This document shows, one piece after another, positions 1-43,389 of a stretch of 64,000 nucleotides of DNA. This DNA comes from a virus. The stretch is taken from the IMG/VR virus record IMGVR_UViG_3300048930_000192, positions 1-64,000 of that record; one strand, 5' to 3'. Made by a program: the position numbers and the translations under genes. How positions within the stretch are numbered: the first letter of the stretch is position 1; the number at the start of each line of letters is the position of its first letter. Below the pieces are notes generated by a model. That model worked only from the letters and a program-made list of their open reading frames with translations, was not told the DNA's origin and ran no database searches.

Positions 1-1236
1 TGTCTTGAATCCGATACGTGGCTGGAAGCTATCTTGCCCAACTGCTCTTACCATCTGGAGCGGTACGTATGGGCAATAGAAGATACCGGCGTCATAAGCG
101 TTTGGTCCCTTATAGCCAACGCAGAAGAAGTTCTTAGCAAGAGTAGAATAAGGATCAATATAAACTTTAATGCCACCGTTAATGGTACCAACGAAGGTGT
201 TACCGGTGTCATCATGAGTCAGATTACTAGCCACTGCTGGCGAATAATCAAGCTTACCAGCCATATCTAGTGCGGCAGCTACGTCAGAGTCGCAGATAAC
301 AAAGTTACCACGGCCTCTGCGAGTTTCCTTAGCGATCTGGTTGGCTTCACGAGCGATCTGATACAACAGGCCCTTGAACTTCTCAGCACTCCAACGACCA
401 TTGGCATCGACGTTAAGGTCGAATACACCAGCAGTCTGGGTAGTACCAGAGCGGCAGCCGAGCTTAGCAACGTAGTAGATGGTGCGAAGTACTTCTCTGT
501 TGATCTCGAAGAGGATTTCGTTGCTCAACATGGTAGCAAGTTCGTTCTCGACATCAAGCCCGTGAACAGCCTTCAGGTCTTGAGCAAGCTCAAGGCTCCA
601 TTCAGCCTTCAATGCGCGGGTCTTTGCTTCAACGACGGTCTTCTCGATAGAGAATCCCATGTCCTTGAACACAGTGCCGTTACCATCTGCAAGGTTTTCA
701 CCCTGGTTGGTAGTCATCGGGCGACCAGGCAAGGCATTGAACGGGTCAGTGTTACGCGAAGTTTCGCTAGTGTTGTTGAAGTCGAAGCCAGCGGTAAAGC
801 CCTTGCCAGCATAAGCAGTTGCACCAGTACCACCGTAGACGGTATCAGCTTCGAGGAACAGAGCCTCTTCGCCAGTAGCGCCACCACCGTACTTAGCACG
901 CAACGCAAAGATAAGACCAGTAGGTCCAGTCATTGGCTGAACGCCACAGAAGTCGTAGGCCATCAAGTTAGGCATAGCACGACGAACCATCGAGATGAGG
1001 ATCGGATCCCACATCGCGATTGGGTTACCAGCAGATCCACCAACACCACCACCGAAGCCAAGTGACGAGCTAGGTGCATTACCTATCACGTTACCGGGAC
1101 CTTCGTTCAGTGTCTGGCGGGTGTTCTCAAGCAGCACAGTGGTAACTGCGCGCTTATAACTATCTTTAATGTCCTTGGTTGCTGGCTCCCAGCGTTCCAT
1201 GAGTTCTTTGGTTACTTGAAACATCTGCATATTCAT
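1..1236 (-). CDS. gp23: Major capsid protein (T4 gp23-like), 3' end runs off the window; absent from the supplied ORF track
   Basis: Manual translation from the ATG at 1236 (SD AGGAG upstream): MNMQMFQVTKELMERWEP...DFCGVQPMTGPTGLIFALRAKY...HDDTGNTFVGTI...SFQPRIGFKT at the edge. These are hallmark gp23 motifs, and the gene follows gp22. Confidence 0.97.
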   Translation of the reverse strand, partial: MNMQMFQVTKELMERWEPATKDIKDSYKRAVTTVLLENTRQTLNEGPGNVIGNAPSSSLGFGGGVGGSAGNPIAMWDPILISMVRRAMPNLMAYDFCGVQPMTGPTGLIFALRAKYGGGATGEEALFLEADTVYGGTGATAYAGKGFTAGFDFNNTSETSRNTDPFNALPGRPMTTNQGENLADGNGTVFKDMGFSIEKTVVEAKTRALKAEWSLELAQDLKAVHGLDVENELATMLSNEILFEINREVLRTIYYVAKLGCRSGTTQTAGVFDLNVDANGRWSAEKFKGLLYQIAREANQIAKETRRGRGNFVICDSDVAAALDMAGKLDYSPAVASNLTHDDTGNTFVGTINGGIKVYIDPYSTLAKNFFCVGYKGPNAYDAGIFYCPYVPLQMVRAVGQDSFQPRIGFKT

Positions 1237-1263
1237 CTGAGTATTCTCCTTGATTGCTGCTTT

Positions 1264-1271
1264 TATTTATA
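1264..1271 (-). promoter_or_regulatory. T4-type late promoter TATAAATA upstream of gp23
   Basis: Plus strand TATTTATA = minus TATAAATA, an exact T4 late consensus, about 28 nt before the gp23 start. Confidence 0.8.
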
Positions 1272-1287
1272 AATCTTACTATTTTAC

Positions 1288-2403
1288 TTACGAATTCTTC
1301 TTGTTACCGAGCAGTCTTACTACTTCGTTAATGAGCGGATCATTGACTCTGTTAGTATTTTCAGTGATTACACCATTGGCATCATCTGCGTCTTGGTTAT
1401 TGGTGGTCTTTGGCTTGTTGGTGAAGTAGCTTTCTTTGATAGTAGTGAGCTTGGTTTCGTAAGACTCAATATCTTCATAAGAAATATCTTCTGCAAGGCT
1501 TAGGAACTTATCAAATTCAACATCAGTCAACGATTCGCCGATGTTAGAGATGATTTCAGCTTTCTGGCTCTGCTCTATCAGGTCACTCAATTCAATGTTG
1601 TTTTCCAACACTTCATTAAGGGCATCTTCGAGTTCTTCTTTCTCTGCGGCGAGTTGGTCGATGATGTCATCGCTGCCCTCTGGCACATCAAAGTTGTGCT
1701 CGACGAACAGAGTTCTAAGACCTTCCAAGAAGCTCTCAGAAATTTCAGCCCGTACACCACGCTCGATAGCGACTTGGTTGGCATCCATCCACTCGTCTGC
1801 AATGTAGTTAAGATAACCATCAAGCTGCTCAGCAAGAGTCTCGTAGTTTTCTTGGATAGCATTCTCTAGAATGGCATTGTATTCTTCAGCGATTTCTTCG
1901 CGAAGAACATTTTCACGCTCATTGAGGGCTGCTTCAAAGATAGTCTTAGCCTTGCTCTTGAAGTCCTCAGTCAGAGAATCGCCACCGCTAAAGAGTGCAT
2001 CAATATGAGCCTGGGCATCATAGCTCTCTTTAGCTTCTTTCTTCTCATCTTCCTCGTCTTCGCCATCCTCATCCTTCTTGGCTTTCTTCTTCTTGGCAAA
2101 GAAAGGATTCTCAGACTTTTCGTCCTTCTCATCCTCGTCATCTTCGTCCTCAGAGTCACCCTTAGCCTCAGAATCAGACTCAGTTACCTTCTCGGCAGTT
2201 GAGCCATTCGGGTCCTTGAGCTTTTCTGGGCCACCACCAGATGCAGATGGATACTTGGCTCTCTTGCCGGTATTCTCTGCATCCTTAGCTTCCTTAGTTC
2301 CTGGTCCAGTCAAAATTTCTTTTGCTTCTGAACCGGGAAGTTTTTCTGGTGCGGTATTTTCGGCGATGATCTTAGCAATACGGTCACGTAGACTGTCTGA
2401 CAT
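1288..2403 (-). CDS. gp22: Prohead core scaffold protein (gp22-like)
   Basis: Acidic coiled coil with LTEDFKSKAKTIFEAA, LDGYLNYIADEWM..N..AIERG and LTTIKESYF motifs; lies between gp21 and gp23. Confidence 0.95.
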   Translation of the reverse strand: MSDSLRDRIAKIIAENTAPEKLPGSEAKEILTGPGTKEAKDAENTGKRAKYPSASGGGPEKLKDPNGSTAEKVTESDSEAKGDSEDEDDEDEKDEKSENPFFAKKKKAKKDEDGEDEEDEKKEAKESYDAQAHIDALFSGGDSLTEDFKSKAKTIFEAALNERENVLREEIAEEYNAILENAIQENYETLAEQLDGYLNYIADEWMDANQVAIERGVRAEISESFLEGLRTLFVEHNFDVPEGSDDIIDQLAAEKEELEDALNEVLENNIELSDLIEQSQKAEIISNIGESLTDVEFDKFLSLAEDISYEDIESYETKLTTIKESYFTNKPKTTNNQDADDANGVITENTNRVNDPLINEVVRLLGNKKNS

Positions 2404-2427
2404 TCTTAAACTCCTGTTATATATGAT

Positions 2428-3112: not shown

Positions 3113-3556
3113 TTATTTAAAGCCCAAAAGTTTATCTATTTCTAGTATTACTGATATACCAGAGTTAGGTGGCACGGATCCAGTGTTTCTTAAAGTTATT
3201 ATATTGTTTCTATCTGAACCAGTATAAGATGTATGAATTGCATTGCCCGCTGCATACAAATCAAACATACCTGAGCCGTTTAGATTAAGCAATGGCTGAC
3301 CGGTCAGACTACCAGAGAGACCAAATGCCAGTTCTATACTACATGCAGTTGTAGATACAGGCATACTCCAGTATATTCTAGAGATGCCCATATTAGTGCC
3401 GGTCACACTGGTTAGACCCTTAAAGCCGTATAATTCAGATGGCTTTATCTCGCCGGTAAGGCCACTGACGTTTAATGTAACAGAAGTGGCATAATTAAAT
3501 GCAACAGTTGATCTTTGCAGGCTGTCTTGTACAATTGTTTTATTAAAACTTGGCAT
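3113..3556 (-). CDS. Hypothetical probable virion/head protein, rich in G-x-T-G motifs
   Basis: 147-aa ORF inside the head operon, abutting its neighbours; contains SGLTG, KGLTSVTG and GSLTG. Confidence 0.7.
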   Translation of the reverse strand: MPSFNKTIVQDSLQRSTVAFNYATSVTLNVSGLTGEIKPSELYGFKGLTSVTGTNMGISRIYWSMPVSTTACSIELAFGLSGSLTGQPLLNLNGSGMFDLYAAGNAIHTSYTGSDRNNIITLRNTGSVPPNSGISVILEIDKLLGFK

Positions 3557-6374: not shown

Positions 6375-8114
6375 TTATAACTTGGGAAACTTTTTAATAT
6401 CTGGAAGTTCTTTATCTTTCAACTTATCTTCTTTGTCGTATTGTCTGGGATCGTATTTCTGCCCATACTCGTTATCGGGTGCCTCGCCACCAAATTCATC
6501 TTGACGTTGATTTGGTTGTGATAAACCCTGTTTGACCTTCTCGTCGTTGTCAAATTTATCAATTTCAACTTTATTTATTATATCCTGTTTGTTCTCGTCT
6601 TCTATTTCTTCTTGCATCTGCTTGACTTCTTGGTCATCACGACGAAGAACATTCTTTAGAACATACGCTCTACTATAATACTTGCCAATATATGGCTCCA
6701 TATTAGTAATTGTAGAAAGACGTTCATTCTCAACTTCAAGTTCTTTAAGTTCACTAAAGTACATATCTTGCAAGAAGTGGAATCTTATCTTTGGCTTTAG
6801 TTCTTCCCAATATTCGTCTGTAACGATACCCTTTAGAATTAGCTGCTTACGAAGCAAATCATAAAATAAATCTGCGAACTTGGTTCTTAGTCTTTCTATG
6901 AACTTGGCAAATTTAATTTCATCTCTACTAATTTCTGTAGATCTACCAATTTGAAAACTCTTTTGTTCGCTTTGTAGACGAGAAAAGGGTATGTTCAAAC
7001 TCTTATACAGTTTATTTAAGAAATACTGAACGTCATCAATTTGGTTTAGATTGCTTGCACCGGGCAATGTGCTAATTGTAGTGCCGTTAGATCCGGCAGA
7101 TTTTGGCATCCAGAAGTCTTCTAGTACGCTCATATATCTACGGTCATCTCTTACTTCACCGGTAGCGGCGTCATACTGCAATTTAGAACGGTACTTAGTA
7201 ATTAACTCTTTAAGATATTGCTCTGCTTTAGGTCTAGGCAGGTTACCAACGTCTACGTTAAATACTCGGCGCTCTGGTGCTCGTGCAAGACGATAAATTA
7301 CCATCGAATCTTCGAGCATCTTAACTTGATTCATTGTGCGAATTGCTTTATGCAAATGCCCGTAAATCAACTTTTTAGTCGGATCATATAAACCAGAATT
7401 AACATATGTTATAATATCTGGGCTAAGTTTAAATGCCTTCATTTGAGGTGAAGATCTAATTAGTGGATTAGAATTGTCTATACTATCTCTAGAATACAGA
7501 TAAAACTCTTTTGTGCCAGTAATTAATTCATTACCGTTCTGATCTTTTTCTTTTGTAATTTCTCTTACTTTGCGAATATTAAGAGGATCAACATATCTGA
7601 CTTCTAGAATACCTTTAGAAGTATCCTTTTCATCTATGATAGTATGAAAGTATAATCTGGCATCAACATACCATCTCTTAAAAAGGTCATACCCTCTGCT
7701 GCGAAATTGAATTAGTTCTAGCACCTTTTCAAATTCTAAATTAATCTTGTCTCTAGTTTCTGGTCGTAACCATTCTAATTCATTAGCTTTGTCTAATATT
7801 AGCTTAACTGGATTTTCAATTTCGTCTGTAACAATAGCCTCGTTTACAATTTCTTCGATGGCTACGTCAATTTCTGGAAATGAACTCATGCTACGATAAC
7901 GAAGAATTACTTCATTATCATTGCGATAAGTGCCGTCCATGTCTAAGCTATAAGTCTGAAAGACACCATCTGCTGATGGTGCTCTTTCAATATTAATAGC
8001 TCCGTCGTCATAGTCGGGTGGAACAAATGACGCCTTCTTGTCTTCCAACTTTTCTAAAGCCGGAGACGGTTTGTTTATCCAGCCGAACATTTCACCGAAC
8101 TTTGGGAACTTCAT
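6375..8114 (-). CDS. gp20: Portal vertex protein (gp20-like)
   Basis: WYVDARLYFH, HLHKAIR..NQVKMLEDSMVIYRLARAPERRVFNVDVGNLP and EISRDEIKFAKFIERLR motifs. Confidence 0.98.
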   Translation of the reverse strand: MKFPKFGEMFGWINKPSPALEKLEDKKASFVPPDYDDGAINIERAPSADGVFQTYSLDMDGTYRNDNEVILRYRSMSSFPEIDVAIEEIVNEAIVTDEIENPVKLILDKANELEWLRPETRDKINLEFEKVLELIQFRSRGYDLFKRWYVDARLYFHTIIDEKDTSKGILEVRYVDPLNIRKVREITKEKDQNGNELITGTKEFYLYSRDSIDNSNPLIRSSPQMKAFKLSPDIITYVNSGLYDPTKKLIYGHLHKAIRTMNQVKMLEDSMVIYRLARAPERRVFNVDVGNLPRPKAEQYLKELITKYRSKLQYDAATGEVRDDRRYMSVLEDFWMPKSAGSNGTTISTLPGASNLNQIDDVQYFLNKLYKSLNIPFSRLQSEQKSFQIGRSTEISRDEIKFAKFIERLRTKFADLFYDLLRKQLILKGIVTDEYWEELKPKIRFHFLQDMYFSELKELEVENERLSTITNMEPYIGKYYSRAYVLKNVLRRDDQEVKQMQEEIEDENKQDIINKVEIDKFDNDEKVKQGLSQPNQRQDEFGGEAPDNEYGQKYDPRQYDKEDKLKDKELPDIKKFPKL

Positions 8115-8137
8115 TATAATTTACAACCTTTGCGAAT

Positions 8138-8674
8138 TTAGCTCGTGGTGCCAAGAGTTCTGTAATACTGATATTGTAGAGTTACTTGGAATGTTTCGAT
8201 TTCTGTTGCAGGCGTCTGATCAAGGTCGATGCTAGATACAACACTTGGCCAGCAATCTACGAACGAATATTTCTTGACATCTCTGCCTTCTCTGTCAATT
8301 TGAGTTACAGTCCAGTCAAACGCATACGAAGCAAGACCGTTACGACCCACGTTGCTTTCAATGCGGTTCATAATATCACTCCATCTTTCGAAGGCGTTAC
8401 GCAACGAAAAGTCGTTATCGTTATAAACTGTAATTGCCCATGGCGCAAATGCACGGTCGCCTGCAAGCTTCAAGTATCTACCTTGAAACGGTACAGTACA
8501 TACACCAAGGTTTGCTTCTGGCAAAGAAGCAGCACGAACCAAAAATCTGATCTTATTTGACGGATTCAGCCCGGCTGCTGCGACACTTTCACCGGGAAAT
8601 ATACCGTCCACGCGGAAGAGGTTTCTTCTAGCGCCACCGAATCCCAGTTCATTTTTGAACATCGATATATTCAC
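8138..8674 (-). CDS. gp19: Tail tube protein (gp19-like)
   Basis: GGARRNLFRV, VPFQGRYLKLAGDRAF.PW.ITVYND.DF.LRNAFERW motifs; GTG start with SD AAGGAG. Confidence 0.96.
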   Translation of the reverse strand: MNISMFKNELGFGGARRNLFRVDGIFPGESVAAAGLNPSNKIRFLVRAASLPEANLGVCTVPFQGRYLKLAGDRAFAPWAITVYNDNDFSLRNAFERWSDIMNRIESNVGRNGLASYAFDWTVTQIDREGRDVKKYSFVDCWPSVVSSIDLDQTPATEIETFQVTLQYQYYRTLGTTS

Positions 8675-9689: not shown

Positions 9690-11435
9690 TTATATCGCGT
9701 TTAACGCGGTAATCTCATCGAATGATACGTTGGAACGGGTCGCCACAAAGCTAAGCGCTATGGTCGAGATGCTCCTGCTAGGTTTTACAAATATAGTTGC
9801 CACGAATCTATTGCCATCAACTACCTCTGCGGTGTTGTTGGTTTCGTCACAAACAACCTTGAAGTCAAAGATACCTCTACGAGATTGTACGTCACGAAGG
9901 AACGGCTCTATTGTAGATACGAAGATTGCGCGAGTAAAGGCGTCGTTGAACTCGAACAACTGATACTTGGCAGCAATACTAATTGCCTTCTCTAGAGTGA
10001 TGAACAATCTACGAACATTGATTCTATCGAATGCACTTGGCTTAGTCTGCGCAGTCTTATCGCCATACAGAATAGTGCCCTCACCAGGGAACGTAACAAC
10101 AGGGTTTACACCCTTCGAATACAATGCATCTCTGTGAGCAGAAGTAGGATTATATGCAAGTTTAGAAAGGTTACGAATTTGACCACGATTGAATCCGGCT
10201 GGCGACCACCACGGATCGTTGGTAAGATCGGTTCTGGCGCAAAGACCAGCAATATCAGAGTTTAGACAGGTCCAACGGTAAACGTCATTATAACGGTCAT
10301 ACTGCTGTCTGTAACCGGTGTCAATAAAGCAATAGCTGTTATTGCCGATTGTGTTGCGAAGATCAAGGCAGGTATCCAACTTAGTTTGTTCAGTTGCAAC
10401 TGGGTTCTTGACATCAGGCGACACAAAGGCCACACAATCAAGACGAGCCTTGGCAATATCTGCAACGTCTTTGGCAGCAGTCTTGCCAAGTGGCCCAGCA
10501 ATTAGCAGAGAAACGTCTACGTTGTCGGTATTGGTAAACATACCATAACCTTCGCCGGAGCTAGAAGAGATGGTAGATTCGGATGGGGCGACTGCGTTGC
10601 CACCGGTGAATGTATAACTTGCACTGCCAGTCAATGAACTCCAAGAATATGCATTCGGAGTGATTATACCAAATGACCCACCTTCTTTTGCGTCACGGGT
10701 AGATATGCCAGTTGGGTGGTTGATCCACCATACATACTTAGAATCGTTCAAGATGTCAACGTAGTAATTTGAGCTGCCGTCCGCCTTGCGGGCACCACGA
10801 GCCTTGCTCAAACCTTCGTGCAATTCGAGAATAGATCCAGTAGATCCACTGAATTTACCATTCAAGTCACGAATTACAATGTGGATTTCATCGTTAACAC
10901 CACCCAAACCTTCTACAAACGGCGAAGTACCAGGTGGATTGGTAAAGTACGCACTGAGCGACCAACCATTGAAAGCAGTCACACCGTCGCACAGATCAAT
11001 CTGCAAGCTGTTTCCAAGTTTACCAGCATACTTACCAGCAATTGCAACTCCTGTGCCACCGCCGCCGCCGAGCCAACCACCGTTTGAAGAAACATTAGAT
11101 TCATAATGATCTGAATTCTTTATAAGAATTGGGCTGGGTGTAGAAGTTGCGCCGGCTACTGCGTTGGTGCTACTACTGTCAACAACTCTTACTACTTGAA
11201 GATTGTTACCGTATGCTAAGAAATTTGCTGCGCTAAAGAAATACTGATAGGTATTTGCGTCAGGTGCGCCAAATAGCTGCACCAAACTAGATTCACTATC
11301 AATCAGAATTCTTTGTGCAACCGGGCCCCAACTAAAGTACCCTGCAATACCAGCAGGCGTGGTAGCCACTGCTGGAATTATGGTACTTAGATCGGTTTCC
11401 TGGACCAAAACTCCAGGGCTTACTTGAAATGCCAT
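9690..11435 (-). CDS. gp18: Tail sheath protein (gp18-like)
   Basis: MAFQVSPGVLVQETDL, PWWSPAGFNRGQI and LYGDKTAQTKPSAFDRINVRRLF motifs. Confidence 0.98.
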   Translation of the reverse strand: MAFQVSPGVLVQETDLSTIIPAVATTPAGIAGYFSWGPVAQRILIDSESSLVQLFGAPDANTYQYFFSAANFLAYGNNLQVVRVVDSSSTNAVAGATSTPSPILIKNSDHYESNVSSNGGWLGGGGGTGVAIAGKYAGKLGNSLQIDLCDGVTAFNGWSLSAYFTNPPGTSPFVEGLGGVNDEIHIVIRDLNGKFSGSTGSILELHEGLSKARGARKADGSSNYYVDILNDSKYVWWINHPTGISTRDAKEGGSFGIITPNAYSWSSLTGSASYTFTGGNAVAPSESTISSSSGEGYGMFTNTDNVDVSLLIAGPLGKTAAKDVADIAKARLDCVAFVSPDVKNPVATEQTKLDTCLDLRNTIGNNSYCFIDTGYRQQYDRYNDVYRWTCLNSDIAGLCARTDLTNDPWWSPAGFNRGQIRNLSKLAYNPTSAHRDALYSKGVNPVVTFPGEGTILYGDKTAQTKPSAFDRINVRRLFITLEKAISIAAKYQLFEFNDAFTRAIFVSTIEPFLRDVQSRRGIFDFKVVCDETNNTAEVVDGNRFVATIFVKPSRSISTIALSFVATRSNVSFDEITALNAI

Positions 11436-15421: not shown

Positions 15422-15424
15422 TTT

Positions 15425-21193: not shown

Positions 21194-22969
<1,776 letters not shown>

Positions 22970-26594: not shown

Positions 26595-26596
26595 TA

Positions 26597-35521: not shown

Positions 35522-35531
35522 TTATTTCCTT

Positions 35532-37811
35532 TTAGAAATTAATTACAAGTTTAATTTCTTCTCTTTGCTCGTTCGATCTTGGCACAGGTCGTATATTTTG
35601 TATGTGAACCAATTCACCAGAATGATACTTTATGTCTGGATATCTTATAATGTTATTTATGGTAGCAGAATACGAATTACCGTATTTAATAGTGTGACCA
35701 GTAGCAAATGTACCCCAAACACCGTTTACTATCGCATTGGCGCTAGTTGATCCTGTAGCAGGAACCCAATCTATTAGATATCCTTTCGACATTTCGGTAG
35801 TTCCAGAAAGGCTTGTTATAAGACTATCCGCAGTCAAAGACGAATCGGTAAATACATTAGCGCCGTTATAGAATAGTTCGATATTATAAGATTGTGTATA
35901 TATACTATTACTGTTAAAGTCGCGATAGGCTATCTCTGATATCTTACCAATTTTACTGCTGTATCCGGTATTACCCACATACCATTTATTGACAAATTCG
36001 CCAATATTAAATGCACCGTGATAGTCTTCTAGATATAGAGATCCTATTAAATTAGTAGCCAAATCTGGCTGCCATTTATACACTTTACCGTAAGAATATG
36101 TAGGATAAACGCTGTCACCAGATGTGCTGCCATTACCGACACTTTGAACAAATTGGCCACGAACAAAATCTACACCTTCTGGATCAAATGTTGCATCATA
36201 TGGTGTTATTTTAACGTCTAGTGTATTGTGCCCTTCTGTGCCTGCAATAGTCTTGTAACTCACTTGATTTATTGTTTTGCCATCAGATAAAGTCAATCCA
36301 ATCTTGAAGGCATTTTCGTAATCAGATTTTAGATAAAGATTAGAGGTGCACGTTATACCGGTGATACCAGCAAACCATTCAATTACTTCACCAGATGCAG
36401 TACCAAAACTTACAATATCACCGGCAGCATAATCGTCAGAATCACCAGACTCAACCAGGTTCAAATTTACTATTTTTCTGTGCAGCAATGGATTTTTCAA
36501 CAAAGCAAATTGGCGATAGTCGTTGCTAATGGTCAGCAAATTGTCTTCATCTTGATCGAAATTCTCTATTATCATCAGCGCATTGCATCCCAGTTCTTTA
36601 ACTGGATTTGAGCCGTGACCACCGGGTGGTGACATTATAGCCTTTGCCAATACCGACATATCGGCATTAGATCCTGGTATCGAAGTTAGCCCCTTAATAA
36701 TTTCAATTTGGCCAAACGTATATTCTTTGCCGCTGTCTACTATTTCGATTGTGTCCAGATATTTCGGTCCAGTAAACCCCGACAGATATTGATCGCCGAA
36801 AGTTACAGCAAAATCTGCTCTATTGAACTGGGTATTAAGAGAATTGTTGCTGGCATATCCGTCACCAACTATTTTTATTTGAGGTTGTATAGAAAACAAA
36901 CTACGATCAGATCCGACACCAGATGTTACGCCAACATCAAGAGGTGTTTCTATAGTTACAGTTGCGCTGTTAGATCCTGCGGCATAGCTAGAAATTATTC
37001 TTTGCTGACCTTGACCAAGCCCAGATTCTATTTTTAGTACCATTCCGTCATAATAACCGTTAGAATACACAATATTTGGGCTAGATATCACAATGCTGCT
37101 TGTGCCAGCAGTTGCTGATTGAGATATTTGATTTTCTGGTTTATAAAAAACAACTCTATCAGATATAATCTGGTCTCTGACAGATTTGTTCAATTCTACA
37201 AAGTCTATACTACCGTCAATTGCCTGTTGCTGAACATTCCATTGCAAAATTCTTTCGTCGTTATCTTCTACGTTTTCGATATATTCGACTGGCATGTATC
37301 CGATAGAATCTGAATAAGATTTAGTCAGAAACTTTCTCTTAGATTCTGGTATCTGATACATAAACTTCCAACGATATCCGTCAGACAATGTTCTTATTTG
37401 AGAATCTGTATGAGTAGGTGCAACCGAAGAAACTGCGTTATAGTTGTTATCTATGCACTTATAAACTCTCGCTTCGTCTACGAGAACATAGAAGTTGGAC
37501 GGGCTATCGTCGTCGAATAAGTCGGTATAATCTCTGTACGTGTTATACACGGTACCTGGTGACCAATCAACTCTTCTTATTACCAAAGAAATATCGTCTT
37601 GGTTTATTTGCTTGCAGCCTATAATACCTCTATAAAACTCGGTATCAGACAAGATCGAATCCACATTGGCTGGCGGCGAGTCGTCGTTTGGCCACTCACT
37701 TATTCTACTTATTGCAACAAAGTACTTATCATCAGAATACTTTATATTAGAATAAAGCATATCTGCTAACGAAGTCCTAGTTTTTTGCCTGAATGGATCA
37801 CATACACCCAT
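35532..37811 (-). CDS. gp8: Baseplate wedge subunit (gp8-like, extended)
   Basis: VYKCIDN, DGYRWKFMY, SPPGGHGSNPVKELG and C-terminal RSNEQREEIKLVINF. Confidence 0.9.
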   Translation of the reverse strand: MGVCDPFRQKTRTSLADMLYSNIKYSDDKYFVAISRISEWPNDDSPPANVDSILSDTEFYRGIIGCKQINQDDISLVIRRVDWSPGTVYNTYRDYTDLFDDDSPSNFYVLVDEARVYKCIDNNYNAVSSVAPTHTDSQIRTLSDGYRWKFMYQIPESKRKFLTKSYSDSIGYMPVEYIENVEDNDERILQWNVQQQAIDGSIDFVELNKSVRDQIISDRVVFYKPENQISQSATAGTSSIVISSPNIVYSNGYYDGMVLKIESGLGQGQQRIISSYAAGSNSATVTIETPLDVGVTSGVGSDRSLFSIQPQIKIVGDGYASNNSLNTQFNRADFAVTFGDQYLSGFTGPKYLDTIEIVDSGKEYTFGQIEIIKGLTSIPGSNADMSVLAKAIMSPPGGHGSNPVKELGCNALMIIENFDQDEDNLLTISNDYRQFALLKNPLLHRKIVNLNLVESGDSDDYAAGDIVSFGTASGEVIEWFAGITGITCTSNLYLKSDYENAFKIGLTLSDGKTINQVSYKTIAGTEGHNTLDVKITPYDATFDPEGVDFVRGQFVQSVGNGSTSGDSVYPTYSYGKVYKWQPDLATNLIGSLYLEDYHGAFNIGEFVNKWYVGNTGYSSKIGKISEIAYRDFNSNSIYTQSYNIELFYNGANVFTDSSLTADSLITSLSGTTEMSKGYLIDWVPATGSTSANAIVNGVWGTFATGHTIKYGNSYSATINNIIRYPDIKYHSGELVHIQNIRPVPRSNEQREEIKLVINF

Positions 37812-37826
37812 GTTTATTTTGCCTTC

Positions 37827-39551
37827 TTAAAAATTCGGACTTGAGCCGTAATTTCTTACGGTGCCTGTTGTTGATCTGCAATCGAACTTCTCTCCGATTG
37901 GCATTTCCAAAAAACTGCCAATTGATATTTTATAAAATTCAGACGCATTATCGTACTGCAATGTAACATATTTATGATCCCGCGGCCCAGTAAATGATTC
38001 TAGCCATTCAGATCGCCTAGATGCAGTTAATGTCCATTCTTGCCAATTTCCCAAACCAGTAGACCCAGCGAAGTTATATCTTTCTTCATATGGTATTCTT
38101 GCCACAACAGTACCGTTATTTCCGATTCTTTCATTTGGATGATCGTATATAATCCAGAAAGGATCTGCTCTTACAAATCCACTAAGACCAACCCAGTCAG
38201 AAGTTGTACCAGATTCATACTCTATGCCATTAGAAAGTGGATTGCAGTTTCCAGCAGTCATTATCAAGTTATCGTGCAGCGAGGGATAATACCCGGCTTT
38301 ATCAGAATCAATCATAAACCAATCGGCAAGATTGTCGTAAGTGTTAAATGTATACGGCAAATAATGTCCAATTATAGGAACTTCATATCTAGAAAGTTCT
38401 GAGTTTGTACTCATATCACCTTCTATACATCGTTTGATTAAAACCTGACCAAAGAAAGCAAGACCGGCTGGGTGAATTAGTTTCTTGATTATATCTCTAT
38501 ATCTGCTTATTACAACTTCTGTTTTAAGCACATAACTAAAGTTCTGATAATAGTGATTATCTTGTAGTACTTTATTGGAACTTAACTTGCCATCATTGTT
38601 TGAATAGTATCCTTCGTAGTTGCATATAGCACCAATATTTGCGGTACCAGAGAATCCAGAACCCTTTACACTTGTAACAGATATAGTTGGCGATATACCA
38701 TAATTAACACCAAAGTTATTAATCTTAATCTTTAGTATTTTGCCAGTAGATGAAACCTGAGAAACTTCTGCTTCTGCTTTTTGCCCAACATCGTTTATAT
38801 CAGTAGTGAAAACTAACTTATCGCCGATTCTATAGTTAGATCCACCGCTTATTATGCTTATTGAAGAAACTACAGAGTATACCTTAGATTCAGTAAGTAT
38901 TTCGGTGTCGTCATTGAACATCACTTGTTGATCAGCAACGAATGTTCCACTTACACCAGTTAGCTCATATTCAGATACCTCAAACACACCAAGCTGATAC
39001 CTAGAAACATTTTCAACAAATGCAGAAGATATAACAGTACCAGAACTATTTACTTGATATATTTTTTTACCAAGAGACCTAAAGCAGTTAGAACCAAGGC
39101 TGCTGCTTGTTCGTATAGTTTTCTTTTGAGTCCACTTGCCGTCACTAACTCTAAGAATATCTAATTTTGGATAATAAAATTCTACGTTAGTGTCATATAA
39201 TATTCTAAAAAGAAGTTCATATGTCTTTTCTGTGCCCCTTGCTCGATAAAACTGTTTAATATTCTTTATCAGCTTTCTTTCATCGAGCGGCGCACCTGTA
39301 TCTTTATTGATGGCAAGAGTTTCTGGAAACCCATTTAGATACTGACTCTTAAAACTAGATATAAACTCGTCGAATGTCGTATCAATATCTATTGCATTAC
39401 CAAGTTCTAACATGTTTCTCAGACTAGAACCCTGAGTTTCTGTCCATTCGTAGTACGCTTTAATAAAAGCAGTAAATGTAGGATGATCCAGCCGCACAAA
39501 TTGCGGTATTCTGTAATTTATGATGGCCGATATATTATTGCCAGTTGACAT
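37827..39551 (-). CDS. gp7: Baseplate wedge initiator (gp7-like)
   Basis: IPQFVR.DHPTF..FIKAYYEW, LIKNIKQFYRARGT, LQDNHYYQNFSYVLK and LIHPAG; lies between gp6 and gp8. Confidence 0.8.
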   Translation of the reverse strand: MSTGNNISAIINYRIPQFVRLDHPTFTAFIKAYYEWTETQGSSLRNMLELGNAIDIDTTFDEFISSFKSQYLNGFPETLAINKDTGAPLDERKLIKNIKQFYRARGTEKTYELLFRILYDTNVEFYYPKLDILRVSDGKWTQKKTIRTSSSLGSNCFRSLGKKIYQVNSSGTVISSAFVENVSRYQLGVFEVSEYELTGVSGTFVADQQVMFNDDTEILTESKVYSVVSSISIISGGSNYRIGDKLVFTTDINDVGQKAEAEVSQVSSTGKILKIKINNFGVNYGISPTISVTSVKGSGFSGTANIGAICNYEGYYSNNDGKLSSNKVLQDNHYYQNFSYVLKTEVVISRYRDIIKKLIHPAGLAFFGQVLIKRCIEGDMSTNSELSRYEVPIIGHYLPYTFNTYDNLADWFMIDSDKAGYYPSLHDNLIMTAGNCNPLSNGIEYESGTTSDWVGLSGFVRADPFWIIYDHPNERIGNNGTVVARIPYEERYNFAGSTGLGNWQEWTLTASRRSEWLESFTGPRDHKYVTLQYDNASEFYKISIGSFLEMPIGEKFDCRSTTGTVRNYGSSPNF

Positions 39552-41468
39552 TTATGTTCCAGTTGAATATGGGAAATTTGCACCAGACGAATATGGATCA
39601 GATCTGATAGATTCGGGTGTACAAGTCACAGTAATATTACTGTAATCTATTGTTACTATTTGATTTCTCTTTGATATAACATCTCGTTTATTTGGTATCA
39701 CAGTTATCTTTATCTCAGAGTCTATTATATTTGATAATCTTGTTGGTCTAAAGTTAACCAATACTAATTTACCAGTATCATAATCAATTGTACCGGCAGA
39801 TTCTTTGACGTATATCTTTTCTTGATCGATAAGTTTATAAATCTTCACTGTGCCCAAACCATCGTCTTCTAAATAGCAATCAACATCGGCACCATCAGAA
39901 TCTATGTAACCAAATCCATTGCTAGATACTATAGACGTATATCCGTCAATTGGGTGATATAGTTGGTTATTATAGTTTATCGTATAGTTGCTAGTAATGT
40001 TAAATCTTGGATCAATTGTTCTCATTAGATTAATGTCTGTATCACTGCTCAATATAGAAGTATTGGTGTCATCGATATAAGACAAGAAATTTGAATATCT
40101 AAAGTTTCTATCGAACTTGTCTAGATATAAATCGCCATATGTAGTTATGTAAGTAGAAATTAGCTGCTGCATAGCCTTTGGTGTTAAATTAGTTTTGCTT
40201 TGATCATAACTAACATTACAATTTATTATAAGATAGATGTATTCTGGATCTACTATTTCTGGCGTAATACTAATTAGATTTCTGCTCTTTATAATATTTC
40301 TAGCAATAGCAGATTTTTCTGATTGAGTAAACTTAAGAGCATTTGTTGGCTTTAAAGATATAAAGACTTTACCGTATATTGGTGGCTCATTATCTTCGCC
40401 GCCCCAAACAAACACACTATCTGCACCTTCACTATATTCTCTTGCGATAAGAGTTCTATAGTCATCAGACGTAACAGCTCTGTCTTGAGCCTGATAGTTC
40501 TTTGGCGCATAATACTTTATACTGCTTAAGTCTTCAACATAAGTACCACCGTATGTTACTGGGTACGTACCGTCGTCATTTTGAACTATTTTAACTGTAG
40601 ATGTGGAATCAGAGGCGTTGGTAAATGTTTGAACAAGACTTGTCTCATTTCTACCAATACCATTACCCTGTTCACCTAGAGTAGTAAGATAAGTAATGCT
40701 TATCAAATTACCATTTTCGGGGCTTCTACCCAAAATGCCATCGCCAAAATAGATCTCATACTTATCTTCGTATCTTTGTACGAAGTATACTCTAGATTCG
40801 CTATTTAAAACATTAATATCAGTCGATTCTTTCCATATGTATTCATTACCTTGGGTATCAGTAACCGATTTTTGTACTCTTACCAATATACTAGTTGTAT
40901 CTACTGTTGGATCTGGTATTATATACTTTATAGCTTCGTTGTTATTATCTGCAACATAAGATACAGAAGAATATGTACCTTGCTTTATTTCAACATTTCT
41001 AGCAACAAACTGCTCAGACTGGTATTCAATTTCGTAGTTATCGGTCGCAACAAATGACATATTTCTACCATTTGCGTCTTTAGCAGTAAATGATGTGCCT
41101 CTTAGTAGATACAATGGTGTGCCATTTATTACCAAATCTTGCTGATCTTCTGTTAGGTTATTATAGTATACGTCAACATAAGTTATTGCACCTCGATAAG
41201 ATCTCGGTACATAGTTTAGGTGCTTAGAAATACTAGCCGCAGACTGCACAGTGCGGCAGCTATCCAAAAATGCTTCATTTGCTACCATGTTAGCATAAAA
41301 TGCTTGATAATGAGTATTTGCAGCAAGAATGTCCAACATTATGTTTAGACCGGCACCTTCAAAATTGTAGTCTTTAAAGGTGTCTTGAGACTGCAAAAAT
41401 GCCTTTAGACTCGACTTAATACCGTCGAAGTCAATAGAGCTTATGCTTATATCTGATCGGTTTGTCAT
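39552..41468 (-). CDS. gp6: Baseplate wedge subunit (gp6-like)
   Basis: DFDGIKSSLK.FL, FKDYNFEGAGL, AQDRAVT..DY and WGGEDNEPPIYGKVFISLKP motifs. Confidence 0.96.
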   Translation of the reverse strand: MTNRSDISISSIDFDGIKSSLKAFLQSQDTFKDYNFEGAGLNIMLDILAANTHYQAFYANMVANEAFLDSCRTVQSAASISKHLNYVPRSYRGAITYVDVYYNNLTEDQQDLVINGTPLYLLRGTSFTAKDANGRNMSFVATDNYEIEYQSEQFVARNVEIKQGTYSSVSYVADNNNEAIKYIIPDPTVDTTSILVRVQKSVTDTQGNEYIWKESTDINVLNSESRVYFVQRYEDKYEIYFGDGILGRSPENGNLISITYLTTLGEQGNGIGRNETSLVQTFTNASDSTSTVKIVQNDDGTYPVTYGGTYVEDLSSIKYYAPKNYQAQDRAVTSDDYRTLIAREYSEGADSVFVWGGEDNEPPIYGKVFISLKPTNALKFTQSEKSAIARNIIKSRNLISITPEIVDPEYIYLIINCNVSYDQSKTNLTPKAMQQLISTYITTYGDLYLDKFDRNFRYSNFLSYIDDTNTSILSSDTDINLMRTIDPRFNITSNYTINYNNQLYHPIDGYTSIVSSNGFGYIDSDGADVDCYLEDDGLGTVKIYKLIDQEKIYVKESAGTIDYDTGKLVLVNFRPTRLSNIIDSEIKITVIPNKRDVISKRNQIVTIDYSNITVTCTPESIRSDPYSSGANFPYSTGT

Positions 41469-41470
41469 TT

Positions 41471-41857
41471 TTATCTGGTCCTTACCAAAGGAACTCTTAC
41501 TAAGGCAACTTCTGGTATATTATAGATAGTAAAAGCTATTTCAGCAGCCAGAAAATTACTATCTGGGTTAAAATAGACTTTAATATCATATTTCTGTATT
41601 CTCGGTTCGTAGTCCTTTATTATCTTACCGATCGACTCTTTCAAAATATATTCTGTGTTTGGGCTGTCGGGAAATTCGAACAAAGTAGAGGTTATTTTGC
41701 TATTGATCTCTGGATGAAATGGCTTCTCATAAAACTGCAATAATATAAGATTACGAACACTTCGCTTGACAGCTTCGGCGTCGTATTTGAACCCAATATC
41801 ACCACTTACTGGATTTCTCTTAAAATCTAGATCTAGATCTGAATATTTTGGCATCAA
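41471..41857 (-). CDS. gp25: Baseplate wedge subunit (gp25-like)
   Basis: YSDLDLDF..NPV, AVKRSVRNLIL, EKPFHPE and YEPR motifs. Confidence 0.94.
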   Translation of the reverse strand: MMPKYSDLDLDFKRNPVSGDIGFKYDAEAVKRSVRNLILLQFYEKPFHPEINSKITSTLFEFPDSPNTEYILKESIGKIIKDYEPRIQKYDIKVYFNPDSNFLAAEIAFTIYNIPEVALVRVPLVRTR

Positions 41858-41860
41858 ATT

Positions 41861-41868
41861 TATTTATC
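41861..41868 (-). promoter_or_regulatory. Probable late promoter GATAAATA upstream of gp25
   Basis: NATAAATA immediately before the start codon. Confidence 0.5.
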
Positions 41869-41875
41869 TAAGTTT

Positions 41876-42166
41876 TTAACCACCTATAAAAGTATTTGGG
41901 CTTCCTTGTATACAAGCAGATCCACAGTCTACAGGATCACCCAATCTCGCAGCTTGAAGACCGTTTATGTAAACAGAGCTAGATCCAGTAGAAGTTTTTG
42001 AGCCAACGTGTCTGTCATCACCACACACATGGTCTGCCCAACCGTCGGTTTGACGGTGAGATGACCTATTATTGACGAACACGTTTGGCGAACCTTCTAC
42101 GTTTGGTCTTGGTGGATAGCAGCCATGGCCAGAGCAATAGTCACCCAATCTAGTTGCAGATCGCAT
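41876..42166 (-). CDS. PAAR spike-tip protein (gp5.4-like)
   Basis: ATRLGD.CSGH, GSPNVFVN and GSSSVYING..AARLGDPVDCG motifs. Confidence 0.95.
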   Translation of the reverse strand: MRSATRLGDYCSGHGCYPPRPNVEGSPNVFVNNRSSHRQTDGWADHVCGDDRHVGSKTSTGSSSVYINGLQAARLGDPVDCGSACIQGSPNTFIGG

Positions 42167-42168
42167 CT

Positions 42169-42849
42169 TTAATCTCCGTAAAATCCGAGTGATTTCTGAT
42201 AAGAAACATAGCTGCCGCCGTCAATTATTTTGCTTGTATCATCTTGGAACTTCTGATCTTCTACTTGCCGAATAAAAGAATCTCTCAGATCACTCCAGTC
42301 TAAAGATATGTCAATTGCATATATTTTTCTGGTTAAAGGCTCTGGTGGTATAAAGTGATATCTTACTACATATCCTTTATTATATATCGGATAGCTGTCA
42401 TATTTAACAGGTTTCGGAAAAATATCGGCTGGATTACCCAAAATTTTACCATATACCTTTAGACTTCTGTTACTATTAGATCCGGTAGATATCAATCCAA
42501 CACCGTCTGGTAACTTACCCGCTACTATAGCAGTAGATGGTCTTAAAAAGAAGTTTTCCAAAGTTGAGTACCATCTACCAAGCAAAGGTGACGACTCAAA
42601 ATATTGAATGGTAGTAGTTTGCCTAAATATTTTAGATATAACTGTTTTATAGTATATATTTTTTAATAGAAATACAGTTGTGTTATATTCTTGATCGATA
42701 TAAGCAACACCAGACGATGTTGTAGATGTGTTTCTTTTAAGAAAAGACAAAGCAGACGACTTTTTGCTTGTTTCTGATATTTTGGTGCCTAGTTCTAAAG
42801 CATCACGACCAACTTTTATTATATCGCTGTCTAATGGTAATATTATCAT
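42169..42849 (-). CDS. Hypothetical protein between gp5 and PAAR
   Basis: 226-aa ORF abutting its neighbours. Confidence 0.6.
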   Translation of the reverse strand: MIILPLDSDIIKVGRDALELGTKISETSKKSSALSFLKRNTSTTSSGVAYIDQEYNTTVFLLKNIYYKTVISKIFRQTTTIQYFESSPLLGRWYSTLENFFLRPSTAIVAGKLPDGVGLISTGSNSNRSLKVYGKILGNPADIFPKPVKYDSYPIYNKGYVVRYHFIPPEPLTRKIYAIDISLDWSDLRDSFIRQVEDQKFQDDTSKIIDGGSYVSYQKSLGFYGD

Positions 42850-43389
42850 TTACGCCTCTACAAACACCTCATTGCCACCAGAATCTCTAATGCCAATCAA
42901 TAACGCACTACCAGACAAATCATACCAAAAGCTACCATAAACGCTCGTTGGTGCAGTTAAACCAATTGTTAAATTAATATTGCCGCCAGAAGCGGAAGAT
43001 ATGTAGTCCCATGCAGATCCGGACCATTTCCATTCTCTATTCTCAAACGCATATATGTCGCCGGTTAGCGGTCCGGTGGGAAAATTGAACTCGGAAAGTG
43101 AATTTACAGATTCGCCGTTTGTAAAAATATCAACAAACTGAGAACTGTTTTCGGTAGAAAGATATACATATCCTTTACCACTATTTGTCTTAATCCATAC
43201 CAGACCCTCAAACGATTCGGTGCTCGCGGGTGCAGTCATACCATAATAAACTGCATACCCATCTGCGCCAGAGTCGCCTTGAGTACCAGCAGGTCCCTGT
43301 ACGACCTGAATAAAGGCTCTTTCTGTAGAAGATGGTGCAAAAGTAGAACCATTTAGGGAAGAAAAATAGTCAATCGATTTACTCATCAC
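42850..43389 (-). CDS. Hypothetical virion protein with a short collagen stretch and a fibre-type W-x-W module
   Basis: QGPAGTQGDSGADG; FPTGPLTGDIYAFENREWKWSGSAW resembles the N-terminus of 21194-22969. Confidence 0.6.
   Translation of the reverse strand: MMSKSIDYFSSLNGSTFAPSSTERAFIQVVQGPAGTQGDSGADGYAVYYGMTAPASTESFEGLVWIKTNSGKGYVYLSTENSSQFVDIFTNGESVNSLSEFNFPTGPLTGDIYAFENREWKWSGSAWDYISSASGGNINLTIGLTAPTSVYGSFWYDLSGSALLIGIRDSGGNEVFVEA

What the first reader, a model, noticed from the sequence alone, without database searches (positions are those of the whole stretch)
780..43389. G-x-T-(G/A/S) motif across nearly all virion proteins, including capsid, neck, sheath and baseplate: a possible virion-wide sequon
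Seen, outside the collagen tracts: gp23 (GGGATGE, GGTGATAY, KGFTAG); 147-aa head protein (SGLTG, KGLTSVTG); gp18 (AGATS, DGVTA, SGSTG); gp15 tail (VTGGATAGSFGPTG); gp14 (NGSTGSTG); gp13 (SGATG); 109-aa protein (SGSTG); 1288-aa fibre (TGVTAG, FGATA, AGPTG, DGVTGYTG); VrlC-like (LGATS, NGATA, SGLTA); gp8 (VGVTSG, SGFTG, AGITG); gp7-like (AGSTG); 179-aa protein (YGMTA, IGLTA). Many sit in non-conserved insertions or tails. By eye the motif is rare in gp17, gp20-gp22 and the replication genes, with exceptions (gp16 VGATG, PhoH HGLTTG). Inference: surface loops have converged on the collagen-type G-X-T-G acceptor of the GT2-TPR enzyme, so the whole particle may carry a glycan coat. I know of no description of this for T4-like phages.
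Basis: partly seen in the sequence, partly recalled or inferred. Interest (0 to 1): 0.85.

Follow-up and report, generated by a model that had tools for sequence, protein, structure and literature searches.

The report
Threonine sugar-tag motif across phage particle
An uncultured T4-like phage carries the short peptide Gly-x-Thr-Gly/Ala/Ser about three times more often than chance on its outer particle proteins, together with an enzyme of the type that puts sugars on such threonines, so the particle is probably sugar-coated, though no chemistry has shown it.

Summary
Outside collagen tracts, 29 virion proteins carry 65 G-x-T-[GAS] sites against 19 expected (0 of 2000 shuffles reach 65). 28 non-virion proteins carry 5 against 4.2. 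Motifs of the same composition are not enriched, the excess survives shuffling within 6-residue windows, and it exists only in the coding frame.

The excess sits in capsid, sheath, neck, gp8 and fibre proteins. It is absent from portal, tube and hub.

Relatives with the GT2-TPR gene show 2.7-4.7x. Relatives without it show 0.9-1.7x. In 78 further GT2-TPR loci the median is 2.7x. All carriers form one deep gp18 clade, so the association is a single event. Most sites nevertheless differ between members, which points to continuing selection.

The enzyme resembles GmaR, SunS and ThuS, which glycosylate proteins or peptides. 38 of 80 bacterial homologues lie beside G-X-T collagen genes.

Glycosylation itself is inferred, not shown. 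"Nearly all virion proteins" is too wide.

This scan noted the same pattern earlier on other phage DNA.

The parts
19802..20956 (-). GT2-TPR glycosyltransferase (384 aa), the proposed writer
   Evidence: Pfam GT2 1.2e-8 plus sub-threshold TPR hits. D93 and D95 (DxD in MIDADE) are invariant in 21 homologues. AF2 model pLDDT 92.7 shows a GT-A domain followed by a helical-repeat domain. Best folds are SunS and ThuS over the full length. Best PDB sequence hit is GmaR, 6.7e-11. It is the only GT2 in the record.
20979..20986 (-). CATAAATA, one mismatch from the T4-type late box TATAAATA, about 20 nt upstream of the GT2-TPR start; a weak lead only
   Evidence: Read. Exact TATAAATA boxes stand before gp23 and before the 448-aa baseplate gene.
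17328..19784 (-). 818-aa collagen-bearing fibre; collagen tract at residues 427-516 is mostly GPT/GAA; 7 dispersed sites outside it against 2.2 expected
21194..22969 (-). 591-aa collagen fibre (GPT/GLT/GAT tract at 37-132); 9 dispersed sites against 1.8 expected
23746..25707 (-). 653-aa collagen fibre with two tracts (162-350, 512-640); no dispersed site outside them
1..1236 (-). gp23 major capsid protein (C-terminus cut by the contig end); 5 sites against 0.9. Four of them (residues 119-149) lie in the region matching T4 I-domain linker 1 / I domain. Site 104 is conserved in all relatives.
3113..3556 (-). 147-aa clade-specific protein of no known family; 2 sites against 0.5; the GLTG site is conserved in two relatives
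9690..11435 (-). gp18 sheath; 4 counted sites plus GGTG in a masked Gly-rich loop. Four of the five lie in residues 91-252, which do not align to T4 gp18 core domains.
13770..14561 (-). gp15; 3 sites against 0.3, all in the C-terminal tail beyond the conserved domain (profile match ends at residue 217)
14564..16249 (-). gp14 (2 sites) and gp13 (1 site), neck proteins
   Evidence: These families also carry conserved sites in relatives without the enzyme.
26265..30463 (-). 109-aa protein (2 sites against 0.2) and 1288-aa fibre (8 against 3.5)
   Evidence: The 109-aa family is 8.1x enriched across GT2-TPR loci.
30668..39551 (-). VrlC-like 1617 aa (5 against 2.3), gp8 (7 against 1.0), gp7-like (2 against 0.8)
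42850..43389 (-). 179-aa protein with a weak tail-collar match; 2 sites against 0.4
6375..8674 (-). Contrast set: portal gp20 (0 sites) and tube gp19 (1 site, at the very C-terminus)
39552..48292 (-). Contrast set: gp6, gp25, PAAR, gp5, hub and tube-cap proteins. Together with portal and tube: 4 sites against 2.3.

Best explanation
G-x-T-[G/A>S] (with S-x-T-G as a weaker form) is a short linear acceptor site, a sequon, for the phage's own soluble GT2-TPR protein glycosyltransferase.

The enzyme is made from the late structural gene block (shown: position and strand; a late promoter is only a weak lead). It probably uses a host UDP-sugar and adds a sugar O-linked to the Thr (inferred from relatives). 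Its first substrates are the G-X-T triplets of the collagen-like fibres. In this clade of uncultured T4-like phages, exposed loops, tails and insertions of capsid, sheath, neck, gp8/VrlC baseplate and fibre proteins have gained the same four-residue context and keep regaining it. Much of the particle's outer surface would then carry sugars.

Shown: the enrichment, its specificity, its restriction to the clade that carries the enzyme, site turnover, and the enzyme's family and its linkage to G-X-T collagen genes.

Inferred: that the dispersed sites are modified, the sugar, and the benefit (for example surface masking, stability or adhesion).
For: 1. Enrichment is 3.4x (z 10.6) in virion proteins only, and control motifs are flat.

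2. It acts at protein level. Only the coding frame is enriched, and all four Gly and all four Thr codons are used.

3. By class: exposed core proteins 26 vs 4.7, fibres 35 vs 12.0, internal parts 4 vs 2.3. I drew these classes after seeing the counts, from recalled T4 anatomy.

4. Whole-record comparison of virion orthologues:
- Carriers: G000 3.44x, G006 3.73x, G002 4.72x, G011 2.67x.
- No GT2-TPR: G004 1.36x (99% complete), G007 1.08x, G010 0.92x, HTVC008M 1.59x.
- G005, with a GT2 that lacks TPR: 1.68x.

5. In 78 further GT2-TPR loci, 59 had an expectation of at least 3. Their median is 2.71x, and 52 of the 59 exceed 2x. In 74 gp18 loci outside the clade, gp18 is 1.09x and gp15 1.03x.

6. 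Sites turn over. By my hand count on the MAFFT columns, 9 of 33 of our sites are shared with G002, which has 45 sites. 4 of 31 are shared with G011, which has 30. Where a site is kept, G and T stay and x varies: GSTG/GLTG/GVTG in gp18, GSTS/GATS/GATG/GITG in gp15.

7. In the same gp18 loop, relatives without the enzyme have G-T-x-G.

8. Pooled over 311 clade ORFs, G.TA, G.TG and S.TG are the top three of all a.bc patterns. G.S[GAS] is only 1.38x and G.T[other] 0.94x.

9. Enzyme: GT-A domain with an invariant DxD plus a helical-repeat domain; similar to GmaR, SunS and ThuS.

10. C. difficile SgtA has the same architecture and adds beta-O-GlcNAc to Thr of short synthetic collagen-repeat peptides. 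A short linear peptide is therefore enough for such an enzyme (PMC7157674, passages read).

11. 38 of 80 bacterial loci with 38-44% identical homologues hold a collagen-like gene within 6 kb, mostly G-X-T. Tunturi_5 shows the same pairing.
Against: - No chemistry exists. No cultured phage among 50,697 records carries a close homologue.
- All carriers with a gp18 fall in one clade: 17 known carriers among 21 rows, support 0.999. The other 4 rows are short contigs. Enzyme and motif are therefore linked by one historical event, and shared ancestry could explain co-occurrence.
- Tunturi_5 has the enzyme family and a GPT/GAT fibre but no dispersed excess (105 vs 123). Bacterial neighbourhoods show none either (236 vs 230).
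- G011 carries the enzyme, yet only 6% of its collagen triplets have Thr in Y. G004 lacks the enzyme yet has GPT collagen.
- The motif also occurs as a conserved structural or catalytic feature without the enzyme: gp23 GPTG, gp13 6.4x, gp14 3.2x, TerS 9.8x outside the clade, and the TerL Walker A G-K-T-S/A.
- Solvent exposure was not measured on coordinates. It is inferred from alignment gaps, secondary structure and T4 anatomy.
- No direct comparison with the SgtA sequence was possible.
Confidence: 0.6

Rival explanations
1. The motif is a clade-specific structural habit of surface loops (a favoured turn or extended segment), inherited and renewed for folding or stability reasons. The GT2-TPR serves only the collagen fibres, or some non-virion target.
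For: One clade carries both traits. Conserved G-x-T-[GAS] sites exist without the enzyme in gp13, gp14, TerS and gp23. Tunturi_5 and bacterial neighbourhoods have the enzyme without dispersed sites.
Against: A purely structural turn would not be expected to require Thr rather than Ser (G.S[GAS] 1.38x against 3.04x). Nor would it require a fixed order ([GAS]T.G 0.58x), nor a small residue after Thr (G.T[other] 0.94x). The motif equals the collagen acceptor context of the co-inherited enzyme family. Non-virion proteins of the same genome are not enriched.
Confidence: 0.25
2. The motif marks a different modification or ligand. Examples are another phage or host enzyme acting on Thr, or a binding site for a decoration protein. 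The GT2-TPR would then be a bystander.
For: The writer is not identified by experiment. The record is only 72% complete, so other enzymes may be unseen.
Against: Among genes of ours shared with clade members (G001, G002 or G011) and absent from the relatives without the enzyme, no other enzyme family was recognised. The six such genes are the 147-aa, 395-aa, 144-aa, 1288-aa fibre, 183-aa and 220-aa ORFs. The first three had no family hit; the 183-aa and 220-aa ORFs were not searched. No GT8 or epimerase is present in the record.
Confidence: 0.1
3. The signal is an artefact of amino-acid composition, low-complexity Gly/Thr/Ser patches, collagen remnants, or a DNA-level repeat.
For: Virion proteins are richer in G, T and S than other proteins. 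A few hits look like two-triplet collagen remnants, for example GPTGPLG in the 818-aa protein and GSTGSTG in gp14.
Against: Within-protein and 6-residue local shuffles still give 2.7-3.4x with 0 of 1000-2000 shuffles reaching the observed count. Same-composition motifs are flat. Other frames are flat and codons are mixed. The x position is mostly A/L/S/I/V, not Pro.
Confidence: 0.03

Closest known systems
Clostridioides difficile SgtA with BclA3 (exosporium collagen-like glycoprotein)
   Same: A soluble GT-A domain plus C-terminal TPRs of about 360-380 aa, encoded next to a collagen-like gene rich in G-X-T. SgtA adds beta-O-GlcNAc from UDP-GlcNAc to Thr of short collagen-repeat peptides in vitro (PMC7157674, passages read).
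   Different: Here the same four-residue context is also spread over non-collagen proteins of a virus particle. Sugar and activity are unknown.
Listeria GmaR (flagellin O-GlcNAc transferase) and the SunS/ThuS glycocin S-glycosyltransferases
   Same: GmaR is the best sequence match in the PDB (6.7e-11, N-terminal 100 residues). SunS and ThuS are the best full-length fold matches (E 6e-15, TMq 0.6). All are GT2 enzymes that act on proteins or peptides. The functions of GmaR and SunS are recalled; the molecule names come from the calls.
   Different: Identity is only 13-15% over the fold alignment. Those enzymes act on one dedicated substrate, not on a proteome-wide motif.
Mycobacteriophage virion glycosylation (Che8 and relatives; Freeman et al. 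2023)
   Same: Phage-encoded glycosyltransferases and glycans attached to major capsid proteins. This is stated in PMC11256854 (passage read). The primary paper was not held.
   Different: Those are siphoviruses of Actinobacteria, and as far as I recall their enzymes are not of the GT2-TPR type. No four-residue sequon spread over sheath, neck and baseplate has been described there, to my knowledge. Here the phage is a T4-like myovirus.
General O-glycosylation of Bacteroidota with the three-residue motif D-(S/T)-(A/I/L/V/M/T) (recalled, not checked here)
   Same: A short linear O-glycosylation motif that marks many unrelated proteins of one compartment.
   Different: That is a periplasmic, lipid-linked, en-bloc system of a cell. 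Here a soluble cytoplasmic enzyme of a virus is proposed.

Membership tests
GT2 protein/peptide glycosyltransferases with a C-terminal TPR-type domain (SgtA / GmaR / SunS type) | GT-A fold with a DxD metal and nucleotide-sugar site | tested here: met
   Pfam PF00535 1.2e-8, above cut-off. D93 and D95 invariant in 21 sequences. The model shows alternating strands and helices at 8-170. GT-A hits in Foldseek.
GT2 protein/peptide glycosyltransferases with a C-terminal TPR-type domain (SgtA / GmaR / SunS type) | C-terminal helical-repeat (TPR) domain on the same chain | tested here: met
   TPR_2, TPR_14, TPR_1 and TPR_12 hits, all below Pfam cut-offs. Ten helices at 182-383 with pLDDT above 90. Foldseek hits to consensus TPR proteins and to the OGT TPR domain.
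GT2 protein/peptide glycosyltransferases with a C-terminal TPR-type domain (SgtA / GmaR / SunS type) | Sequence or fold similarity to characterised members | tested here: met
   GmaR 6.7e-11 and SunS 1.2e-5 by sequence. SunS and ThuS full-length by fold, E 6e-15 to 3e-13. The NCBIfam SunS model scores 34 bits against a cut-off of 350, so this is not a SunS equivalog. SgtA itself was not compared.
GT2 protein/peptide glycosyltransferases with a C-terminal TPR-type domain (SgtA / GmaR / SunS type) | Gene linked to its protein substrate (a collagen-like G-X-T gene, as for sgtA-bclA3) | tested here: met
   In the window it lies between two G-X-T collagen fibre genes. In Tunturi_5 it lies about 4 kb from a GPT/GAT fibre. 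38 of 80 bacterial homologue loci have a collagen-like ORF within 6 kb.
GT2 protein/peptide glycosyltransferases with a C-terminal TPR-type domain (SgtA / GmaR / SunS type) | Transfers a sugar to Ser/Thr (or Cys) of a protein | not testable with these tools
   Needs an enzyme assay or mass spectrometry.
Protein glycosylation sequon | A short linear motif over-represented in the substrate class beyond composition and specific in order and residue | tested here: met
Protein glycosylation sequon | Motif density follows presence of the enzyme across genomes | tested here: inconclusive
   It holds in every genome examined. But all carriers form one clade, and the one independent carrier, Tunturi_5, shows no dispersed excess.
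Protein glycosylation sequon | Sites are accessible on the folded or assembled substrate | tested here: inconclusive
   The gp15 tail, gp18 residues 91-252, loops of the gp18 model and the gp23 I-domain region all point outward. Internal proteins are not enriched. No solvent accessibility was computed on coordinates.
Protein glycosylation sequon | Sites are occupied by glycan | not testable with these tools
   Needs glycoproteomics.
Phage virion glycosylation (mycobacteriophage type) | Phage-encoded glycosyltransferase plus glycan on capsid or tail proteins | not testable with these tools
   The enzyme is present. The glycan is unknown. The primary paper was not held.

The most novel reading that the evidence does not exclude
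A large, deep, wholly uncultured clade of T4-like aquatic phages coats the outside of head, sheath, neck, baseplate and fibres with O-linked sugar. It would do so through a virus-owned four-residue sequon (G/S-x-T-G/A) read by an SgtA/GmaR-like enzyme. IMG/VR holds 475 loci that encode this enzyme, and the protein database holds 5,224 homologues at E <= 1e-10, though those counts also include bacterial genes. The sequon would be continually re-invented in surface loops. That would make it a general protein-glycosylation code evolved by a bacteriophage.
Probability: 0.55. Interest if true: 0.85.

Novelty: new variant of a known kind. Interest (0 to 1): 0.75.

Why it matters
Phage particles are usually taken to be bare protein. 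The only documented glycosylated virions I could find cited are mycobacteriophages. The pelagimyophage literature reads glycosyltransferases in the fibre region as host-LPS modifiers (PMC7029224, passages read).

If the reading here is right, a sequon-directed sugar coat on a widespread aquatic T4-like clade would change several things:
- how adsorption, particle decay, grazing and stickiness of marine and freshwater viruses are understood;
- what the abundant fibre-region glycosyltransferase genes are thought to do;
- the tools available for protein engineering, since it would offer a compact, soluble, peptide-directed O-glycosyltransferase with a four-residue tag.

The prediction is directly testable with two cloned genes. 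My full-text searches found no description of virion glycosylation or of such a motif in T4-like phages. Subscription papers and supplements were not searchable.

Tried and rejected
- **Composition artefact:** rejected by whole-protein and local shuffles and by permuted control motifs.
- **DNA-level motif or collagen-DNA insertion:** rejected. The other frames are flat, codons are mixed, and x is rarely Pro.
- **General property of T4-like structural proteins:** rejected by four relatives without the enzyme and by 74 loci outside the clade.
- **General property of any phage with this enzyme family:** not supported. Tunturi_5 shows no dispersed excess.
- **Another clade-specific enzyme as writer:** none recognised among the six clade-restricted genes, two of which (183 aa, 220 aa) I did not search.
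- **G-X-T collagen as proof of the enzyme:** rejected. G004 has GPT collagen without the enzyme, and G011 has the enzyme with few Thr triplets.
- **TerL excess in GT2-TPR loci (27 vs 9.3):** explained by the Walker A G-K-T-S/A and a second G-K-T-S site, not by a sequon.
- **Other sugar genes in the record:** none for GT8 or epimerase, and only one GT2. The record is 72% complete.
- **Trees:** the careful treekit tree did not finish in 300 s. The quick tree and a FastTree were used. My first midpoint rooting was uninformative, so I re-rooted on L010.
- **Structure mapping:** gp8, gp23 and gp15 were not folded, and no solvent accessibility could be computed.

Full report
**What the window is.**
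The 64-kb window is the first half of a 131.8-kb virus record that CheckV rates 72% complete. PHROGs places a T4-type structural module on the minus strand from 1 to about 48,292. It holds gp23, scaffold, protease, portal, tube, sheath, terminase, gp15, gp14, gp13, three collagen-bearing fibres, a 1288-aa fibre, a VrlC-like protein, gp8, a gp7-like protein, gp6, gp25, PAAR, gp5 and hub proteins. The nearest cultured relative by sheath protein is Pelagibacter phage HTVC008M, at 50% identity. A 384-aa gene at 19802-20956 encodes a GT2 domain followed by TPR-like repeats, and it lies between two collagen fibre genes.

**Is the motif enriched?**
I masked every run of four or more G-X-Y triplets and counted G.T[GAS].
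- 29 virion proteins (12,105 aa) hold 65 sites. Within-protein shuffles give 19.06 +/- 4.33, and none of 2000 reaches 65.
- 28 non-virion proteins of the window hold 5 against 4.24.
- The 159 other ORFs of the whole record hold 15 against 18.0.

Motifs built from the same residues in another order or spacing are flat: G.S[GAT] 0.92x, T.G[GAS] 1.04x, the reverse [GAS]T.G 0.58x, GT.[GAS] 0.89x, G..T[GAS] 1.05x. G.T followed by any other residue is 1.11x. Any residue other than Gly at the first position gives 1.01x overall, although S.T[GAS] reaches 2.0x.

In an unbiased scan of all 8000 a.bc patterns, G.TG (29 vs 6.6) leads those with real counts. G.T is the top pair at gap 1. Shuffling only within windows of 30, 15, 10 or 6 residues leaves 3.2x, 3.1x, 2.9x and 2.7x, each 0 of 1000. 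The other five frames of the same genes show nothing, and the Gly and Thr codons at the sites are mixed.

**Where the sites are.**
I grouped the proteins by recalled T4 anatomy after seeing the counts, so the grouping is post hoc.
- gp23, the 147-aa protein, gp18, gp15, gp14, gp13, gp8 and gp7-like: 26 sites against 4.7.
- Fibres and large proteins: 35 against 12.0.
- Portal, tube, gp6, gp25, PAAR, gp5 and hub proteins: 4 against 2.3, not significant.

Placement of individual sites:
- All three gp15 sites lie beyond the conserved domain, since the profile match ends at residue 217.
- Four of five gp18 sites lie in residues 91-252, which do not align to the T4 sheath core.
- In the AF2 model of gp18 (mean pLDDT 71), one site follows a strand in coil, one is in a disordered loop and one is in a hairpin loop. 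One sits at a strand-helix border and one caps a helix.
- Four gp23 sites (residues 119-149) fall where T4 gp23 has I-domain linker 1 and the I domain. The T4 head paper describes the I domain as forming protrusions on the capsid surface (PMC9546572, passages read). My residue mapping there is approximate.

**Relatives.**
I compared virion orthologues in whole records.

| Record | GT2-TPR | Observed / expected | Ratio |
|---|---|---|---|
| G000 (ours) | yes | 65 / 18.9 | 3.44x |
| G006 | yes | 51 / 13.7 | 3.73x |
| G002 | yes | 65 / 13.8 | 4.72x |
| G011 | yes | 44 / 16.5 | 2.67x |
| G001 | unknown, contig ends before the region | 16 / 3.3 | 4.81x |
| G004 (99% complete) | no | 21 / 15.5 | 1.36x |
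| G007 | no | 19 / 17.6 | 1.08x |
| G010 | no | 15 / 16.3 | 0.92x |
| HTVC008M | no | 24 / 15.1 | 1.59x |
| G005 | GT2 without TPR | 52 / 31.0 | 1.68x |

A profile search of IMG/VR found 475 loci that encode the enzyme. The best 80 were kept, and I analysed 78 that were new. Of those, 59 had an expectation of at least 3. Their median is 2.71x, 52 exceed 2x and 2 are below 1.5x. By family the ratios are gp15 7.45x, gp8 4.89x, gp14 4.05x, VrlC 3.81x, gp18 3.29x and the enzyme itself 0.73x.

In 74 sheath-centred loci outside the clade, gp18 is 1.09x, gp15 1.03x and gp23 1.41x. There, however, gp13 is 6.36x, gp14 3.15x and TerS 9.8x, owing to conserved sites that exist without the enzyme. The TerL excess in enzyme-bearing loci comes from the Walker A G-K-T-S/A.

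**One clade, but with turnover.**
In a sheath tree of 95 rows, all 17 rows known to carry the enzyme fall in one clade of 21 (support 0.999). The other four rows are short contigs that do not cover the region. The clade is deep, up to 2.41 substitutions per site. The enzyme-motif association is thus one historical event and not a set of independent replicates.

Against simple inheritance, sites move. By my count on the MAFFT columns, 9 of 33 of our sites are shared with G002, which has 45. 4 of 31 are shared with G011, which has 30. Where a site persists, G and T stay while x changes. In one gp18 loop the relatives without the enzyme read G-T-x-G, and the clade reads G-x-T-G. The gp15 tail and a gp23 loop are rewritten in the clade. 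Pooled over 311 distinct clade ORFs, G.TA (4.0x), G.TG (3.4x) and S.TG (3.0x) are the three strongest of all a.bc patterns. G.S[GAS] is 1.38x and G.T[other] 0.94x. These rows are related, so the z-scores there overstate independence.

**The enzyme.**
- Pfam finds GT2 above its cut-off and TPR families below theirs.
- D93 and D95 (MIDADE) are invariant in 21 homologues.
- The AF2 model (pLDDT 92.7) has a GT-A domain and ten C-terminal helices.
- The best PDB sequence match is GmaR. SunS and ThuS follow and are the best full-length fold matches. All of these modify proteins or peptides. The functions are recalled; the names come from the calls.
- C. difficile SgtA has the same architecture, sits beside bclA3, and adds beta-O-GlcNAc to Thr of short synthetic collagen-repeat peptides (PMC7157674, passages). 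This shows that a short linear G-X-T peptide can suffice for such an enzyme.
- Among 80 bacterial loci with 38-44% identical full-length homologues, 38 have a collagen-like ORF within 6 kb. Those ORFs are mostly GAT/GST/GPT, with Thr in Y up to 0.99. The bacteria span Proteobacteria, Chlamydiota, Verrucomicrobiota, Myxococcota and others.
- Tunturi_5, a jumbo phage with a 32%-identical enzyme, has it about 4 kb from a GPT/GAT fibre.
- The record holds no other GT2, GT8 or epimerase. That fits a single sugar taken from a host nucleotide sugar, which is an inference.

**Results against the reading.**
- Tunturi_5 has no dispersed excess (105 vs 123). Neither do the bacterial neighbourhoods (236 vs 230).
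- G-X-T collagen is not tied to the enzyme in every genome.
- Some G-x-T-[GAS] sites are plainly structural or catalytic.
- Exposure is inferred, not computed.
- Nothing shows a sugar.

**Verdict.**
The most likely reading (0.6) is a dispersed O-glycosylation sequon on exposed virion proteins, read by the SgtA/GmaR-like GT2-TPR and confined to one deep, uncultured clade of T4-like phages. The main rival (0.25) is a clade-specific loop motif unrelated to the enzyme.

Full-text searches found no report of this for T4-like phages. The pelagimyophage study reads fibre-region glycosyltransferases as LPS modifiers. Virion glycosylation is cited only for mycobacteriophages (the primary paper was not held).

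Earlier notes of this scan describe the same enzyme-plus-motif pattern on other phage genomes, two of them followed up with the same verdict. These are AI notes and not independent evidence.

Noticed in passing
window 8767-9639 (-): A homing endonuclease gene (GIY-YIG type by PHROGs) sits between the sheath and tube genes.
   Followed up: no
window 3557-6366 (-): Two ORFs of 538 and 395 aa between the prohead protease and the portal have no PHROG or Pfam family. The 395-aa ORF is shared only with one clade member.
   Followed up: partly
window 9690-11435 (-), gp18 residues about 195-200; loci G004, G005, G007, G010, HTVC008M: In one sheath hairpin loop, relatives without the enzyme read G-T-x-G while the enzyme-bearing clade reads G-x-T-G. 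The Thr has moved by one position.
   Followed up: partly
window 1264-1271, 48299-48306, 54677-54684 (-): Only 3 exact TATAAATA boxes occur in 64 kb against about 10 expected. Two stand directly before gp23 and before the first baseplate gene.
   Followed up: no
L232-L311 (bacterial genome contigs): Full-length homologues of the GT2-TPR (38-44% identity) are common in Methylococcales, Rhizobiales, Chlamydiota, Verrucomicrobiota and Polyangiales. 38 of 80 lie within 6 kb of a collagen-like gene made almost wholly of GAT/GST/GPT triplets, some with more than 300 triplets.
   Followed up: partly
G005 (L131-L137): This relative has 8 ORFs with long collagen tracts (749 triplets, GAT 212) and a GT2 without TPR. 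Its dispersed motif is only mildly raised, 1.68x.
   Followed up: partly
window 1-1236 (-): The contig starts inside gp23, so the capsid protein lacks its C-terminus. The record is linear and rated 72% complete.
   Followed up: no
window 26265-26594 (-): The 109-aa protein matches a family annotated as tail-fibre assembly. It is among the most motif-rich families across enzyme-bearing loci (91 vs 11.3). Whether it is in the particle is unknown.
   Followed up: no
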